Shown here: in pieces, positions 20,010-61,130 of the stretch
Layout of the letters: each line of letters opens with the position of its first letter
Numbering within the stretch: position 1 is the first letter of the stretch
Origin: the human T2T-CHM13v2.0 reference genome, Homo sapiens
Assembly: GCF_009914755.1 (NCBI RefSeq)
Contig: NC_060936.1
Strand: one strand, 5' to 3'
Length of the DNA: 64,000 nt
Position numbers and translations under genes: made by a program
Notes under the pieces: model-generated
Database searches by the model: none
What the model saw: the letters and a program-made list of their open reading frames with translations, nothing else
What the model was told of the DNA's origin: nothing

Positions 20010-20230
20010 CAGACACTGTTCTGGGGCTTACACATATTGGAAATCAATTTGTCCCCACAGTGGCCCAAGGAGGCAGGCATGGAAAATGACACCCATTTTA
20101 GAGATAAGGAAACCGAGGACAGAACGGTTAGGTAACTTGCCCAACAACACACAGAGAGTAAGTCATAGATATGAGGTTCAAAACCAGGCAGTCTAGGAGC
20201 CCAGGCATGTAACCACTGCACTGTGTGGCC
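20010..20230 (-). mobile_element. MIR
   Basis: cccattttagagataaggaaaccgagg...aacttgcccaac. Confidence 0.75.
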
Positions 20231-33407: not shown

Positions 33408-33530
33408 TGTGTGTGTGTGCATGTGTGTGTGTGTGCATGCGTGTGTGCATGTGTGTGCGCGTGTGCACGCGTGTGTGAGCGCGTGTGTAAATGCACTCAT
33501 GTGCATTGGCGTGCACACACGTTCGTGCAT
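33408..33530 (+). repeat. (TG)n/(CG)-mixed alternating purine-pyrimidine repeat
   Basis: gtgtgtgtgcatgtgtg...gcgtgtgcacgc. Confidence 0.9.
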
Positions 33531-34059
33531 AAGAGATGGGGGTAGATTAGGAACAGTGGGAGAAAACCAGTATCAGCCTGGGCTCGCCCCTCAAGCAGAG
33601 CTGTAGCTGAAGGCTGGTGAGAGGCCGTGTGTGGGAATCGGGCCCAGGAGCAGGGCTGGGGCTGGGAAGTGAAGGAGGGGGCGCCCATGAACAGATCCTT
33701 AGGGGCTGGTGCAGCATCCAGCGGGAGCTGCCCAGGAGTCTCCTGAAAGCAGCCGCAGAAGTGTTCCCCCGCAGATGAAAAGGGAAGCATTGTCTATCAG
33801 CCGCTGCCCCCCATTGGTCACAGGGCGGGGAGGGGGGCTCTGTATATGTCAGCCCTGCCCTCACACTCCTGGGTTTCCCAGGCAGGGGGTCCAAGCAGGT
33901 TCTTGCAGGTACAACACACACCGCAGCATCCGCAAAACCCTGGGGGAGGAAGCAAGAGGTGCGGGGTGTGCACTAAGGTGAGAGCCATCCCATGGCACCT
34001 GCGGGGAGCTGCTCTCTGCAGAAACGGGGTAAAACATGGGTCGAGAGGAGCCCAACGGG

Positions 34060-34296
34060 GCACGGGAAGGGGCCCAGGCAGCCAGCGTGGGTCCCGGGCA
34101 GCCAGCATGAGTCCAGCCAGCGTGGGTCCTGGGACAGCCAGCGTGGGTCTCGGCTGAGCACAGGAAGGGGCCCCGGGCAGCCAGTGTGAGTCCTGTCAGC
34201 GTGGATCCCAGGGCAGCCAGTGTGGGTCCCGGGCAGCCGGCATGAGTCCTGAGGCAGCCAGCGTGGGTCCCGGGCAGCCGGCGTGGGTCCCCAGCC
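34060..34296 (+). repeat. Degenerate ~20-bp minisatellite (GGGCAGCCAGCGTGGGTCCC), ~10 copies in two higher-order blocks
   Basis: Repeated cagccagcgtgggtcc units; both blocks start with gcac(g/a)ggaaggggccc (~34060 and ~34158). Confidence 0.85.
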
Positions 34297-34739
34297 TGAG
34301 CCTGCCTGCTCTGCCTTTTGCTGGAATGTTGCTCTCCCCACAGCTGCCGGCCTGTGGGAGCCAAGAGCTTCTCCCTCACCAGCCAAAGAAGAGGCCAGGA
34401 GCTTCTCCCTCACCAGCCAATGGGTTCTGGGGCATTCCAGTCTTGGACCTTCTCCCCAAGGAGGACTGACAAGGGCTGGGGAAGCTCACCAGGGCACCGC
34501 CCCTCAGTGGTTTCCCAGCAGCCCTGGAAGGAAGCGCGCATTGTTTGCACAGCTGGTTATTTTTCAGGTCGAGAAAACGTGATGCGATTGGCAGTCAGTG
34601 TCCTGGGGGTCTGTCTGCTCTGGGGGCTGGGTGGGTAGCACCCTAACCAGCTCTGGTCTCCCTCCACTGCCCAAGTTACAATCGCCATCGATGCCCCTCT
34701 AGTGGATGCACGTATGATGATGACGGCGATGACAATCAC

Positions 34740-34910
34740 CACAGCTAACACTGCGACAGCACTCACTTTGTGCCAACCACTGTTTGACATGCTTCCCACA
34801 TACGAACTCACTCAGTTTTTACAACAACCCTATTTGGTAGATGCTGTTATGAGCCCCATTTTACAGACAAGGAAACTGAGGCAAGGGAGGCTAAGTCACT
34901 TTTCCAAGTA
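34740..34910 (-). mobile_element. MIR
   Basis: ccccattttacagacaaggaaactgaggc. Confidence 0.8.
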
Positions 34911-34938
34911 ATAAATAGTATGTTAGATGGCGATCTGT

Positions 34939-35402
34939 AGGGAGAGGCCAGTGGCTATTTTGAACAACAATACAACCTACCAGCTATATGTTATGACATA
35001 CATGAACAGTGGACTCCACCTCCTACCTCTTTAGAAAATTGGGATATTTTCCCAATACTACAGTGTCTGGAGTTATCAAACTAACAGCAGTTCAATTGTC
35101 TCATCTATCAGCATTCTGACAACTCTAGGGTATAATCTGGATATTTATGGGGAGACCCTGACCTACCGGGCACTTGCAGGGGTGGGTGACCCCAAAAATA
35201 TCCAAATTATATTCCAGAGTTGTCAGAATGCTGATAGATGAGATGAGTGAGCTGTTGCTGCTTTGATAACTCCAGACACTATAGTATTGGGAAAATACCC
35301 CAATTTTCTAAAGAGGTAGGAGGTGGATTCTGCTCTTCAAGTACATAGTAATATGTAGCTGGGGGGTTGTATTATGGTTCCAAATAGCCACTGCCCTTCC
35401 CT
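34939..35402. repeat. Long imperfect inverted repeat (arms ~214 bp, spacer ~37 nt)
   Basis: 35015-35080 is the reverse complement of 35262-35327 (64/66). 35099-35126 is the reverse complement of 35216-35243 (28/28). The outer arms align at lower identity. Confidence 0.95.
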
Positions 35403-35760
35403 GGGGCTGCATCCCACACTTCTGTATGTCCTTGCTCCGTTGATAGCAGGCTTCACCATGTGACTTGTTTTGGCCAATAGGTATGAACAAAAGAAACATG
35501 CTTCACTTCTGGGCAGAATCCCCAAGAGCTACCATGAGGTCCTCCGCTTCTCTTTTCTCCCTACCACAAGACTGACATGACTCCAAGAGGGACTGCTCCT
35601 TTAGCCTGGGTCCCTAGAATGAAGATTGATATGCAGAAAAACTTCAGCCAGCCTGCAATGGACTTGTGGGGTTAGCAATAAGCTTTTGTTGTTATAAGCC
35701 ACTGAGAGCCAGGGGCTGTATGTTACTGTGGCAGAACTTAGCTGAAGCTGACTAACACTG
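35354..35760 (+). mobile_element. MLT1H/G-like LTR
   Basis: catgtgacttgttttggccaatagg...agcctgggtccc...ttgttataagccactgag...ctgactaaca. Confidence 0.75.
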
Positions 35761-35859
35761 TTACTAACAGAATCATTTTCAAATGTAGAAAATAAAAGTG
35801 GTCTCTGAAAGCTGCTATGAGTTCACATAGAACAAGTCACACCTGACAAATGCCTTTTA

Positions 35860-36290
35860 TATATTTGATAGGGTTACACGAGTGATACAGAGAGGAATTT
35901 TGTAGTATAAGGATATCTGAAGTTCAGCTTGCATTATCAAAAACTTTGCCTCTGTTTCCCATAAATAAGATAGAGAAATGTGAGCTGGGTAAGAGCATGA
36001 TTAAATGGTTTCATAACCATTACAGTGAGGAACCAAGAAGGGCTGATTTCATGTGGCTGATGCCAACCTGCTGAAAGGTCTCTAATGGTATGTCACAGGG
36101 CTCTACCCTTGTTTCACTCAGTTCAGTGTTTTCATTAATGATTTTTCACAAGGCCTTCAAAACCTAGGCTGATCACATTAAAAAATGATACAAAGCTGGG
36201 GAGAACAGTCTGGTAAACCATGAAATATTTTTGGCAGAGCAGAACAAGATGAATTGTAACAGAGATGAAACAACGTCTTAAAAAACCAGA
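35860..36290 (+). mobile_element. L3/CR1 reverse-transcriptase fossil
   Basis: Degenerate translations GMSQGSTL (36087), FSVFIND (36122) and DTKLG (36187) match the CR1 RT motifs GVPQGSVLGP.LF.IFIND and ADDTKLG. Confidence 0.75.
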
Positions 36291-36292
36291 AG

Positions 36293-36682
<390 letters not shown>

Positions 36683-36944
36683 TCATTGAGCACTCCCAGT
36701 GTATCAGACAGCGTGCCAAGGACTGACTTGACACAATTCCCTCATTGTATTCTTCCCCAGGATCCTGAGTAGTTCATGCTGTGCTTTAAATAAGAGGTAC
36801 ATTCATTGAATCACCTATAGGAAAAAAAAAATCAAAGCATGTAACTTTTTCCATAAAGAAACTCCCAGGAGTTAGAGACCACTCTTTCTGGAATGCAATG
36901 GCATTTTCTATTATTTCTTCTTAAATGCTTTTAGATTAAGGATT

Positions 36945-37260
36945 CTGTTTAACTCAACAAATACTTACTGAACTCCTACTATGTGTCCAACATTCTTCCA
37001 GGTACTGGGAACGGGTTGGTGAATAACACAGGTAAAATCTCATCCACCGTGGAGTTGCCTGCCAAGGTAGAAGACACAAAAAAGAAATGAACCCTCTAAT
37101 TTTTGGTGGTGATTCATTCTGTGAAGACCATCAACAGGGTGAGAAAATACAGAGTGACTGGGGAAGGGGGAGGGGTAATTATATGGGAAGATCAGGGAAG
37201 GCTTCCCTGAGGAGGTGACTTTGGGCCGAGCCCTAACAGGTGACAAGAATCCAGCCACTG
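36945..37260 (-). mobile_element. L2 fragment
   Basis: actcaacaaatacttactgaactcctactatgtg...gggaaggcttccctgaggaggtgac. Confidence 0.75.
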
Positions 37261-60949: not shown

Positions 60950-61130
60950 CCTCTTCCAGCTGTGTGGCCTTGGGCAAATGACTTAGCCACTCTGGGCCTC
61001 GGTTTCCACATGTGGAAAATGGGGGTGCTGCCAGCAGCTGCGTGCTGGGGTTTTTTATAAGGATCAGATGAGTAGGATATGTGGCGAGTGCCCAGAATGG
61101 TGCCCGGCACAGTGAGAGTGCAAAAAGCTC
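60950..61130 (+). mobile_element. MIR
   Basis: agctgtgtggccttgggcaaatgactta...gcctcggtttccacatgtggaaaatgggg. Confidence 0.75.

What the first reader, a model, noticed from the sequence alone, without database searches (positions are those of the whole stretch)
34939..35402. ~464-bp fold-back palindrome with a near-perfect core: candidate long hairpin RNA or cruciform upstream of RFLNA
Seen: the left arm 34939-35152 is the reverse complement of the right arm 35190-35402 around a ~37-nt spacer. Two blocks are almost perfect (35015-35080 vs 35262-35327, 64/66; 35099-35126 vs 35216-35243, 28/28), while the outer ~70 bp and the segment between the blocks are clearly more diverged. Both core mismatches are A-C on a + strand transcript and G-U wobbles on a - strand transcript, so a - strand RNA would form an uninterrupted 66-bp helix. 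The outer right arm overlaps the start of an MLT1 LTR, and only that start is mirrored on the left. Inference: this is an inverted duplication that post-dates the LTR, not the terminal inverted repeats of a DNA transposon, and the uneven identity suggests arm-to-arm gene conversion or selection for pairing. Established: duplexes this long are substrates for ADAR, Drosha/Dicer and PKR, and closely spaced inverted repeats can extrude cruciforms. A small nested hairpin (ttggga-tattt-tcccaa) sits inside the left arm.
Basis: partly seen in the sequence, partly recalled or inferred. Interest (0 to 1): 0.8.

Follow-up and report, generated by a model that had tools for sequence, protein, structure and literature searches.

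The report
Old fold-back duplication beside an LTR
A 464-base stretch upstream of RFLNA is a real, one-off inverted duplication that copied part of an old retroviral LTR and its neighbouring sequence; it can fold into a long hairpin, but nothing seen here shows that it does anything.

Summary
The palindrome is real. The arms are 34939-35158 and 35184-35402, 185 of 220 aligned columns match, and the spacer is 25 nt. Both near-perfect cores are exactly as reported (64/66 and 28/28).

It is not a palindromic transposon:
- The outer ~50 nt of the right arm is the 5' end of an MLT1-type LTR that runs on to 35758. Six other genomic copies of that LTR show this.
- The left arm carries a mirrored copy of that LTR start only.
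- Both arms share a private AGCTGG insertion.
- The interior has no other copy in the T2T genome.

So this is a local inverted duplication made after the LTR inserted.

Outside the cores the arms differ at 32 of 120 sites. Changes are roughly equal on each arm, the transition:transversion ratio is ordinary (21:13 over all 34 differences), and neither RNA strand is favoured. That looks neutral and old.

The cores differ at 2 of 94 sites. The 66-nt run is unlikely under even divergence (permutation p = 0.005). Later arm-to-arm conversion, by template switching or heteroduplex repair, is my preferred cause. Selection is not excluded, because no orthologues could be examined.

No Rfam family matches and no paper I searched mentions the locus. 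It is a plausible ADAR substrate inside the ZNF664-RFLNA readthrough intron. Interest is modest.

The parts
34939..35158 (.). Left arm of the fold-back (the derived, inverted copy)
   Evidence: Reverse complement of 35184-35402, 185/220; 214-nt ungapped register at 84%.
35159..35183 (.). Unpaired spacer / hairpin loop, 25 nt
   Evidence: Distance between the arms; unpaired or weakly paired in all folds.
35184..35402 (.). Right arm (original orientation, continuous with the LTR)
   Evidence: The LTR homology runs on from inside this arm to 35758.
35015..35080 (.). Core block 1, left copy (partner 35262-35327), 64/66
   Evidence: Longest run with at most 2 mismatches; permutation p = 0.005.
35099..35126 (.). 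Core block 2, left copy (partner 35216-35243), 28/28
   Evidence: The longest perfect run (29 columns) is not significant alone, p = 0.15.
35081..35098 (.). Diverged 18-nt patch between the cores (partner 35244-35261), 8 substitutions, 6 of them transitions
35354..35758 (+). MLT1-type (MaLR) LTR. Its first ~50 nt form the outer right arm.
   Evidence: Collinear with L010 over 35367-35758. L005, L006, L007, L009 and L011 match the body and end at 35753-35758. Five more copies share the 5' end. Other copies lose similarity about 13-25 nt upstream of the shared motif, which starts at 35375.
34939..34989 (-). Mirrored copy of the LTR's 5' end, forming the outer left arm
   Evidence: Matches L010 (81% of 42), L037 (82% of 50), L040, L052 and L054 in the opposite orientation to the right-hand LTR. 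Shares the private AGCTGG insertion with the right arm.
34759..34908 (+). SINE fragment (MIR-type by recall) abutting the left arm; marks the left breakpoint region
   Evidence: Two related copies in the window, at 20086-20144 and 60969-61121. Their 3' continuation does not align significantly to the palindrome.

Best explanation
This is a single-copy, ancient local inverted duplication (a fold-back).

Origin. A stretch of about 220-240 nt was copied in reverse complement and placed about 25 nt upstream of itself. The copied stretch was about 170 nt of unique sequence plus the first 50-65 nt of an already inserted MLT1-type LTR. A switch of the replicating strand to the opposite template, or snap-back repair of a break, is the most likely cause.

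Later history. The two arms then diverged independently and neutrally. A central tract of about 112 nt (35015-35126 and its partner) was later rewritten from one arm to the other. Intrastrand template switching or mismatch repair of an arm-to-arm heteroduplex could do this. It left the 64/66 and 28/28 cores, with an unconverted or re-mutated 18-nt patch between them.

Consequence today (inferred, not shown). When the ZNF664-RFLNA readthrough intron is transcribed, the + strand folds into an imperfect hairpin of about 220 bp. That hairpin should be bound and edited by ADAR. There is no evidence that the cell uses it.

Shown here: the duplication, its polarity relative to the LTR, its uniqueness in the genome, and the uneven identity.
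Inferred: the mechanism of duplication, the conversion, the ages, and the RNA consequences.
For: 1. The palindrome is real and far beyond chance.

2. The outer arms are LTR sequence.
- L010 is collinear with 35367-35758, and in the opposite orientation with 34939-34980.
- A 19-mer from this part gives 45 genomic hits against 7 for the reversed control.
- Loci were returned for 28 of the 43 hits at other places. Five of the 28 (L037, L040, L047, L052, L054) are LTR copies that align from the same 5' end through to the LTR body.
- Upstream of that end the other copies are at random-level identity to each other (0.26-0.29), while the two arms stay 0.60-0.90 identical.

3. Both arms carry an AGCTGG insertion that none of the 6 other copies has.

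4. The interior is unique in the genome. DNA searches with the left arm and with the right interior return only the locus itself. Three core patterns with mismatches allowed show no excess over reversed controls: 5 vs 4, 0 vs 0, 62 vs 51.

5. The non-core parts diverged neutrally.
- 32/120 sites differ, K2P 0.34.
- In 38 usable LTR columns, 5 derived states are shared, 4 are right-arm only and 5 are left-arm only.
- Over all 34 differences the transition:transversion ratio is 21:13, and wobble compatibility is 13 on + against 8 on -.

6. The cores differ at 2/94 sites, K2P 0.022. The 66-nt run has permutation p = 0.005.

7. Published mechanism. Template switching can create reverse-complement repeats and repair the pairing of existing stems (PMC8794818, abstract read). 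It also homogenises imperfect inverted-repeat arms (PMC8604942 and PMC13100816, abstract openings in the listing).
Against: - No orthologue from any other species could be examined, so conversion cannot be told from purifying selection on the cores.
- The ages rest on substitution rates recalled from memory.
- Template-switch events described in print are mostly far shorter than 112 nt, let alone about 230 nt (my recollection of PMC5453318; only its listing was seen).
- The 28-bp core is not significant alone (longest perfect run, 29 columns, p = 0.15).
- The 18-nt patch with 8 differences sits awkwardly inside a single conversion tract.
- The DNA search is insensitive to old repeat families. 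It returned only 8 non-self matches for the LTR part. A low-copy ancient family covering the interior is therefore not strictly excluded without Dfam.
- The left edge abuts a truncated SINE whose 3' remainder was not found. The left arm may once have been longer and been trimmed by a deletion.
Confidence: 0.6

Rival explanations
1. The cores are kept alike by selection. The hairpin, or a DNA element inside it, would be functional: for example a structured intronic dsRNA that recruits ADAR, Staufen or Dicer, or a symmetric protein-binding site.
For: - The 66-nt run with 2 mismatches is unlikely under even divergence (p = 0.005).
- The helices are as long as those of edited non-repetitive dsRNAs. 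Here they reach 31 bp (+) or 66 bp (-), against a median longest helix of 30 bp for 4,597 edited non-repetitive dsRNAs. Loops under 100 nt are typical of that class (PMC11838218, Table 1 and text passages read).
- The site lies in a transcribed readthrough intron (hub table).
Against: - Outside the cores there is no sign of selection for pairing: ts:tv over all 34 differences is 21:13, wobbles are 13 vs 8 across strands, and both arms drift equally.
- No Rfam family matches. The best hit overlapping the palindrome is 23.7 bits against a gathering score of 90.
- No RefSeq functional element lies here (hub table).
- ZNF664 and RFLNA are absent from the 5 supplementary files held for a study of immunogenic dsRNAs (PMC12695637).
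- In the dsRNAscan survey conserved dsRNAs are short and weak (median 65 bp, -42 kcal/mol), unlike this one (PMC11838218).
Confidence: 0.15
2. The uneven identity is a chance fluctuation or a local mutation cold spot. This would be one old duplication with no later conversion and no selection.
For: - The longest perfect run alone is unremarkable (p = 0.15).
- The blocks were picked out after looking at the data.
Against: - The permutation test for the 66-nt run gives p = 0.005.
- 2/94 against 32/120 mismatches is a very large contrast over short distances.
Confidence: 0.07
3. It is a copy of a palindromic non-autonomous DNA transposon (a MER/MITE-type family) and the arms are its inverted repeats.
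For: - The size and overall symmetry resemble such elements.
- The genome search tool is weak on old families (only 8 non-self LTR matches).
- No Dfam library was available.
Against: - No other copy of the interior exists in 3.1 Gb.
- Three core patterns show no excess over controls.
- The arm ends are the 5' end of an LTR that continues on one side only, with a private insertion shared by the arms.
- No direct repeat flanks the arms (read).
Confidence: 0.03
4. Two independent MLT1 insertions lie head to head, with the similarity between them incidental.
For: LTR-start sequence is present in both orientations.
Against: - The roughly 170 nt inside each LTR piece is also mirrored at 84-100% and is unique in the genome.
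- Both LTR pieces share the private AGCTGG insertion.
Confidence: 0.01

Closest known systems
Template-switch mutations and inverted-repeat homogenisation (Loytynoja & Goldman 2017, PMC5453318; Monttinen & Loytynoja 2022, PMC8794818; PMC8604942)
   Same: They produce a reverse-complement copy next to its source, can create a hairpin in one event, and can later repair or homogenise an imperfect stem. This fits both the origin and the near-perfect cores.
   Different: Described events are mostly tens of bases (recalled).
Large sex-chromosome palindromes with arm-to-arm gene conversion (PMC8600007, PMC8327919, PMC8981503; abstract openings seen in the listing)
   Same: Inverted repeat arms around a spacer, kept alike by conversion between arms.
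   Different: Those have arms over 8-10 kb, over 99% identity along the whole arm, carry genes and lie on X or Y. This one is autosomal and non-coding, has 220-nt arms, is 84% identical overall, and has only a short homogenised tract.
Predicted and edited intramolecular dsRNAs of the human genome (dsRNAscan, PMC11838218)
   Same: About 220 bp, 84% paired by identity (88-90% with G-U), ΔG -318 kcal/mol (+ strand fold), short loop, intronic. These values lie within or above the range of edited non-repetitive dsRNAs (median 144 bp, -185 kcal/mol, 87.5% paired).
   Different: Most edited dsRNAs are pairs of independent Alu copies about 2 kb apart. This one is a single duplication with a 25-nt loop.
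Palindromic non-autonomous DNA transposons (MER/MITE families)
   Same: A few hundred bases, two-fold symmetric.
   Different: No dispersed copies, no target-site duplication, and the ends are borrowed from an LTR.
Fragile quasipalindromes, such as closely spaced inverted Alu pairs and PATRRs (review PMC7999016, passages read)
   Same: Closely spaced inverted repeats that can form hairpins on single-stranded DNA.
   Different: Per the review, risk rises with arm identity and falls with spacer length. Inverted Alus stalled forks in eukaryotic cells with a 12-bp spacer but not with 52 bp. This element has 84% identity and a 25-nt spacer, and its estimated age (tens of millions of years, inferred) suggests it is tolerated.

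Membership tests
Local inverted duplication (fold-back / quasipalindrome) | The two arms are reverse-complement copies of one contiguous local sequence | tested here: met
   185/220 identical in one register with a single 1-nt gap.
Local inverted duplication (fold-back / quasipalindrome) | The copied segment cuts across a pre-existing element that continues on one side only | tested here: met
   The LTR runs 35354-35758 on the right. Only its first 50-65 nt are mirrored on the left.
Local inverted duplication (fold-back / quasipalindrome) | The arms share private changes absent from other copies of that element | tested here: met
   AGCTGG insertion in both arms and in 0 of 6 other copies. Five shared derived states in 38 columns.
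Local inverted duplication (fold-back / quasipalindrome) | An outgroup species has the unduplicated state | not testable with these tools
   No other eukaryotic genome is held.
Palindromic non-autonomous DNA transposon (MER/MITE) | Dispersed related copies in the genome | tested here: not met
   Only the locus itself is found. Patterns give 5 vs 4, 0 vs 0 and 62 vs 51 against controls. The search is weak for low-copy old families.
Palindromic non-autonomous DNA transposon (MER/MITE) | Terminal inverted repeats of the family flanked by a target-site duplication | tested here: not met
   The arm ends are LTR sequence. No direct repeat flanks 34939 and 35402 (read).
Palindromic non-autonomous DNA transposon (MER/MITE) | Match to a curated repeat library (Dfam/Repbase) | not testable with these tools
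   No such library is on hand.
MLT1-type (MaLR) LTR, for 35354-35758 | Collinear similarity to dispersed copies with common 5' and 3' ends | tested here: met
   3' ends coincide at 35753-35758 in L005, L006, L007, L009, L010 and L011. The 5' end is shared by L010, L037, L040, L047, L052 and L054.
MLT1-type (MaLR) LTR, for 35354-35758 | Assignment to a named subfamily | not testable with these tools
No library call supports it.
Known structured RNA family (miRNA precursor and others) | Rfam covariance-model score at or above the gathering score | tested here: not met
   The best hits overlapping the palindrome are mir-2009 at 23.7 bits (gathering 90) and MIR781 at 22.6 bits (gathering 88).
ADAR-edited long dsRNA | Long, mostly paired intramolecular helix with a contiguous stretch of about 30 bp | tested here: met
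   + strand: 193/214 paired, longest helices 31 and 29 bp. - strand: 188/214 paired, longest 66 bp. The threshold is taken from PMC11838218.
ADAR-edited long dsRNA | Transcribed, with A-to-I sites on both arms | not testable with these tools
   Only the annotation of a + strand readthrough intron is available (hub table). No RNA-seq or REDIportal access.
Large gene-converting palindromes (X/Y type) | Arms over 8-10 kb with over 99% identity throughout | tested here: not met
   Arms are 220 nt and 84% identical.

The most novel reading that the evidence does not exclude
The roughly 112-nt centre of an otherwise decaying inverted duplication of roughly eutherian age (an inferred date) has been kept pairable, by repeated template-switch homogenisation or by selection. 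The hairpin would then be used as a long intronic dsRNA upstream of RFLNA that yields small RNAs or serves as a dedicated ADAR or dsRNA-binding-protein site. It would be a natural, non-repeat-family example of a long hairpin maintained in the human lineage.
Probability: 0.1. Interest if true: 0.6.

Novelty: new member of a known kind. Interest (0 to 1): 0.3.

Why it matters
If the reading is right, this is a clean, datable example of how a long hairpin arises in one step from ordinary sequence, with an LTR edge serving as a built-in marker of polarity. It would also show how part of such a hairpin can later be re-homogenised.

It could serve as a small test case for template-switch or arm-to-arm conversion models at the 100-nt scale. 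It is also a candidate non-Alu ADAR substrate.

It does not change how any pathway is understood, and no effect on RFLNA is indicated.

Tried and rejected
- **Rfam scan of 33500-37000 at E up to 1.** Nothing near a gathering score in the palindrome. The other hits are Alu-type sequence at 36418-36564.
- **Palindromic transposon family.** Rejected and on the LTR-edge argument.
- **Composite pattern linking the LTR-start motif to a downstream LTR motif.** It found only the window and L010, so it added no further copies. The 19-mer search did better.
- **Searching for the missing 3' part of the flanking SINE inside the palindrome.** The aim was to recover the pre-duplication junction. No significant match, so the junction is unresolved.
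- **Strand preference from G-U compatibility.** 13 vs 8; by my own arithmetic the two-sided binomial p is about 0.4. Rejected as evidence for a - strand RNA.
- **Nested hairpin at 35039-35055.** A 6-7 bp stem; by my own arithmetic about 0.08 such stems are expected by chance per arm. Not pursued.
- **Locus-specific literature.** required any 2 of 5 terms (ZNF664-RFLNA, ZNF664-FAM101A, RNA editing, inverted repeat, dsRNA). 5,851 papers matched, and none of the 15 listed contains either gene name. This does not show that the locus is absent from print.
- **Supplements of PMC12695637.** The 5 files held have no RFLNA, ZNF664 or FAM101A.
- **A Fisher test** used 33 instead of 32 non-core mismatches, so I do not quote its p-value.
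- **An ungapped anchored comparison** had the right-arm anchor 2 nt off. It was redone correctly.

Full report
**Observation**

- The repeat finder reports arms 34945-35158 and 35184-35397: 214 nt, 84% complementary, 25 nt apart.
- A gapped local alignment extends them to 34939-35158 vs 35184-35402, with 185 of 220 columns identical.
- The two near-perfect blocks are exactly as described: 35015-35080 vs 35262-35327 is 64/66, and 35099-35126 vs 35216-35243 is 28/28.
- Folding 34920-35420 gives -318.1 kcal/mol (+ strand RNA), -313.2 (- strand RNA) and -168.6 (DNA). The z-scores are -27, -27 and -25, and no shuffle comes close.
- The two core mismatches are A-C on the + strand and G-U on the - strand. 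The longest unbroken helix is 66 bp on the - strand and 31 bp on the + strand.
- The only correction is the spacer, which is 25 nt rather than about 37.

**What the outer arms are**

Sensitive BLAST of the region against loci fetched from the same genome gave the first clue. One locus (L010, contig 10) is collinear with window 35367-35758. The same piece of L010 also matches 34939-34980 in the opposite orientation. Five other loci match only the body of the element and stop at 35753-35758.

A 19-mer from the shared part gave 45 genomic hits with at most one mismatch, against 7 for the reversed control.
- 43 of those hits lie at other places, and loci were returned for 28 of them. The other 15 were not fetched.
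- I dropped 23 of the 28: 15 are copies of two unrelated segmentally duplicated sequences, and 8 show nothing beyond the motif.
- The remaining 5 (L037, L040, L047, L052, L054) align with L010 and the right arm from a common 5' end through to the LTR body. L047 was chosen by eye and gave no BLAST hit.

Upstream of that 5' end the other copies fall to random identity with each other (0.26-0.29). The two arms of the window remain 0.60-0.90 identical there.

The element is therefore a dispersed LTR that starts at about 35354 and ends at 35758. Its first 50 nt form the outer right arm, or about 65 nt counting the weak extension to 35416. The outer left arm is a mirrored copy of that start only. 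Both arms also carry an AGCTGG insertion that none of the six other copies has.

**What the interior is**

The genome holds no other copy of the interior.
- DNA searches with the left arm and with the right interior at E up to 10 returned only the locus itself.
- Three patterns from the cores, with 2-3 mismatches allowed, showed no excess over reversed controls: 5 vs 4, 0 vs 0 and 62 vs 51.

One caveat applies. The DNA search returned only 8 non-self matches for the LTR part, so it is weak on old families. The pattern searches argue against a family of hundreds of copies, not against a handful.

Together with the LTR edge and the lack of flanking direct repeats, this rejects a palindromic transposon. 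It also rejects two independent head-to-head LTRs.

**History of the arms**

| Segment (left-arm coordinates) | Mismatches / columns |
|---|---|
| LTR part, 34945-34989 | 7 / 45 |
| Outer non-LTR, 34990-35014 | 10 / 25 |
| Core 1, 35015-35080 | 2 / 66 |
| Patch between cores, 35081-35098 | 8 / 18 |
| Core 2, 35099-35126 | 0 / 28 |
| Inner, 35127-35158 | 7 / 32 |

- Non-core K2P distance is 0.34 and core K2P is 0.022.
- In the LTR part, 38 of 51 columns were usable. Both arms match the majority of other copies at 24 columns. They share a derived state at 5. The right arm alone is derived at 4 and the left alone at 5.
- The other copies were found with a left-arm motif, which biases that count slightly. 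Even so, the picture is of two arms drifting equally, with about as much change after the duplication as between LTR insertion and duplication.
- Over all 34 differences, transitions to transversions are 21:13.
- Of the 21 transitions, 13 leave a G-U on the + strand and 8 on the - strand. Neither strand's RNA is favoured, and selection for pairing has left no mark outside the cores.
- With substitution rates I recall (about 0.15-0.17 per site on the human lineage since the eutherian radiation), 0.17 per arm puts the duplication very roughly at that age. The core's 0.011 per arm corresponds to about 10 million years, with a wide error because it rests on 2 sites. These dates are inference.

**The cores**

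Permuting mismatch positions gives a run of 66 or more columns with at most 2 mismatches in 0.5% of trials. The longest perfect run (29 columns) is reached in 15% of trials. So the unevenness is real but rests mainly on the 66-nt block.

I favour a later arm-to-arm conversion across about 35015-35126. Template switching during replication is documented to create reverse-complement repeats and to fix the pairing of existing stems (PMC8794818, abstract). It is also documented to homogenise imperfect inverted-repeat arms (PMC8604942 and PMC13100816, abstract openings in the listing). Arm-to-arm conversion is well known in large palindromes (listing).

The 18-nt patch with 8 differences, 6 of them transitions, may be an unconverted island or a later mutation cluster. 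I cannot tell which. Selection on the cores remains possible, and telling the two apart needs orthologues, which no tool here holds.

**Function**

Nothing examined here points to one.
- No Rfam family reaches its threshold.
- The hub table lists no functional element at the site.
- One search returned 5,851 papers holding any 2 of its 5 terms, and none of the 15 listed names ZNF664-RFLNA or ZNF664-FAM101A. The supplements held for a study of immunogenic dsRNAs do not mention the genes.
- The site lies in the intron of the + strand ZNF664-RFLNA readthrough transcript (hub table).

On that strand the hairpin has 193 of 214 positions paired and helices of 31 and 29 bp. In the dsRNAscan survey, edited non-repetitive dsRNAs have medians of 144 bp, 30 contiguous bp and -185 kcal/mol, with an excess of loops under 100 nt. 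There are 4,597 of them among 5.1 million predicted dsRNAs (PMC11838218, passages and Table 1). This hairpin is therefore a credible ADAR substrate but not a rare kind of object. That survey would class it as repetitive, because its arms touch an LTR.

As DNA, 84% arm identity and a 25-nt spacer make it a weak candidate for cruciform extrusion or fork stalling. Risk falls with arm divergence and with spacer length (PMC7999016, passages). Its estimated age suggests it is tolerated.

**Verdict**

- The functional suggestions are untested, and the strand argument does not hold.
- This is a new example of a known kind of structure, and interest is modest.

Noticed in passing
window 36418-36564: Alu-type sequence: sub-threshold hits to Metazoa_SRP (38.7 bits, gathering 70), mir-1268 (41.4, gathering 83) and mir-3135. 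An ordinary SINE about 1 kb downstream of the palindrome.
   Followed up: no
window 34759-34908, 20086-20144 and 60969-61121: Three related old SINE fragments (MIR-type by recall). The first is cut off at or just before the left arm of the palindrome, and its 3' remainder was not found nearby.
   Followed up: partly
window 35081-35098 vs 35244-35261: Between the two near-perfect cores lies an 18-nt patch with 8 substitutions, 6 of them transitions and no indel. It is denser than the 27% seen elsewhere outside the cores. It could be an unconverted island or a later clustered mutation.
   Followed up: partly
L036, L041, L042, L049, L055-L061 (contigs 1, 3, 4, 9, 13, 14, 15); further hits on contigs 20, 21, 22, 24: The variant TTGTTCATAATATCCACTG of the search motif sits in a nearly identical sequence repeated at many places, in the low coordinates of contigs 13, 14, 15, 21 and 22 among others. 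This is a segmentally duplicated block unrelated to the LTR.
   Followed up: no
L026-L029 (contig 1 at 121.2, 143.05, 144.2 and 205.5 Mb): Four places share the same one-mismatch variant of a 19-mer from the core. This probably reflects duplicated segments of contig 1 rather than relatives of the palindrome. Their flanks were not compared.
   Followed up: no
L038, L048, L050, L051 (contigs 2 and 9): A second unrelated duplicated sequence carries the motif variant TTGTTCTAAATATCCACTG, with near-identical flanks at four places.
   Followed up: no
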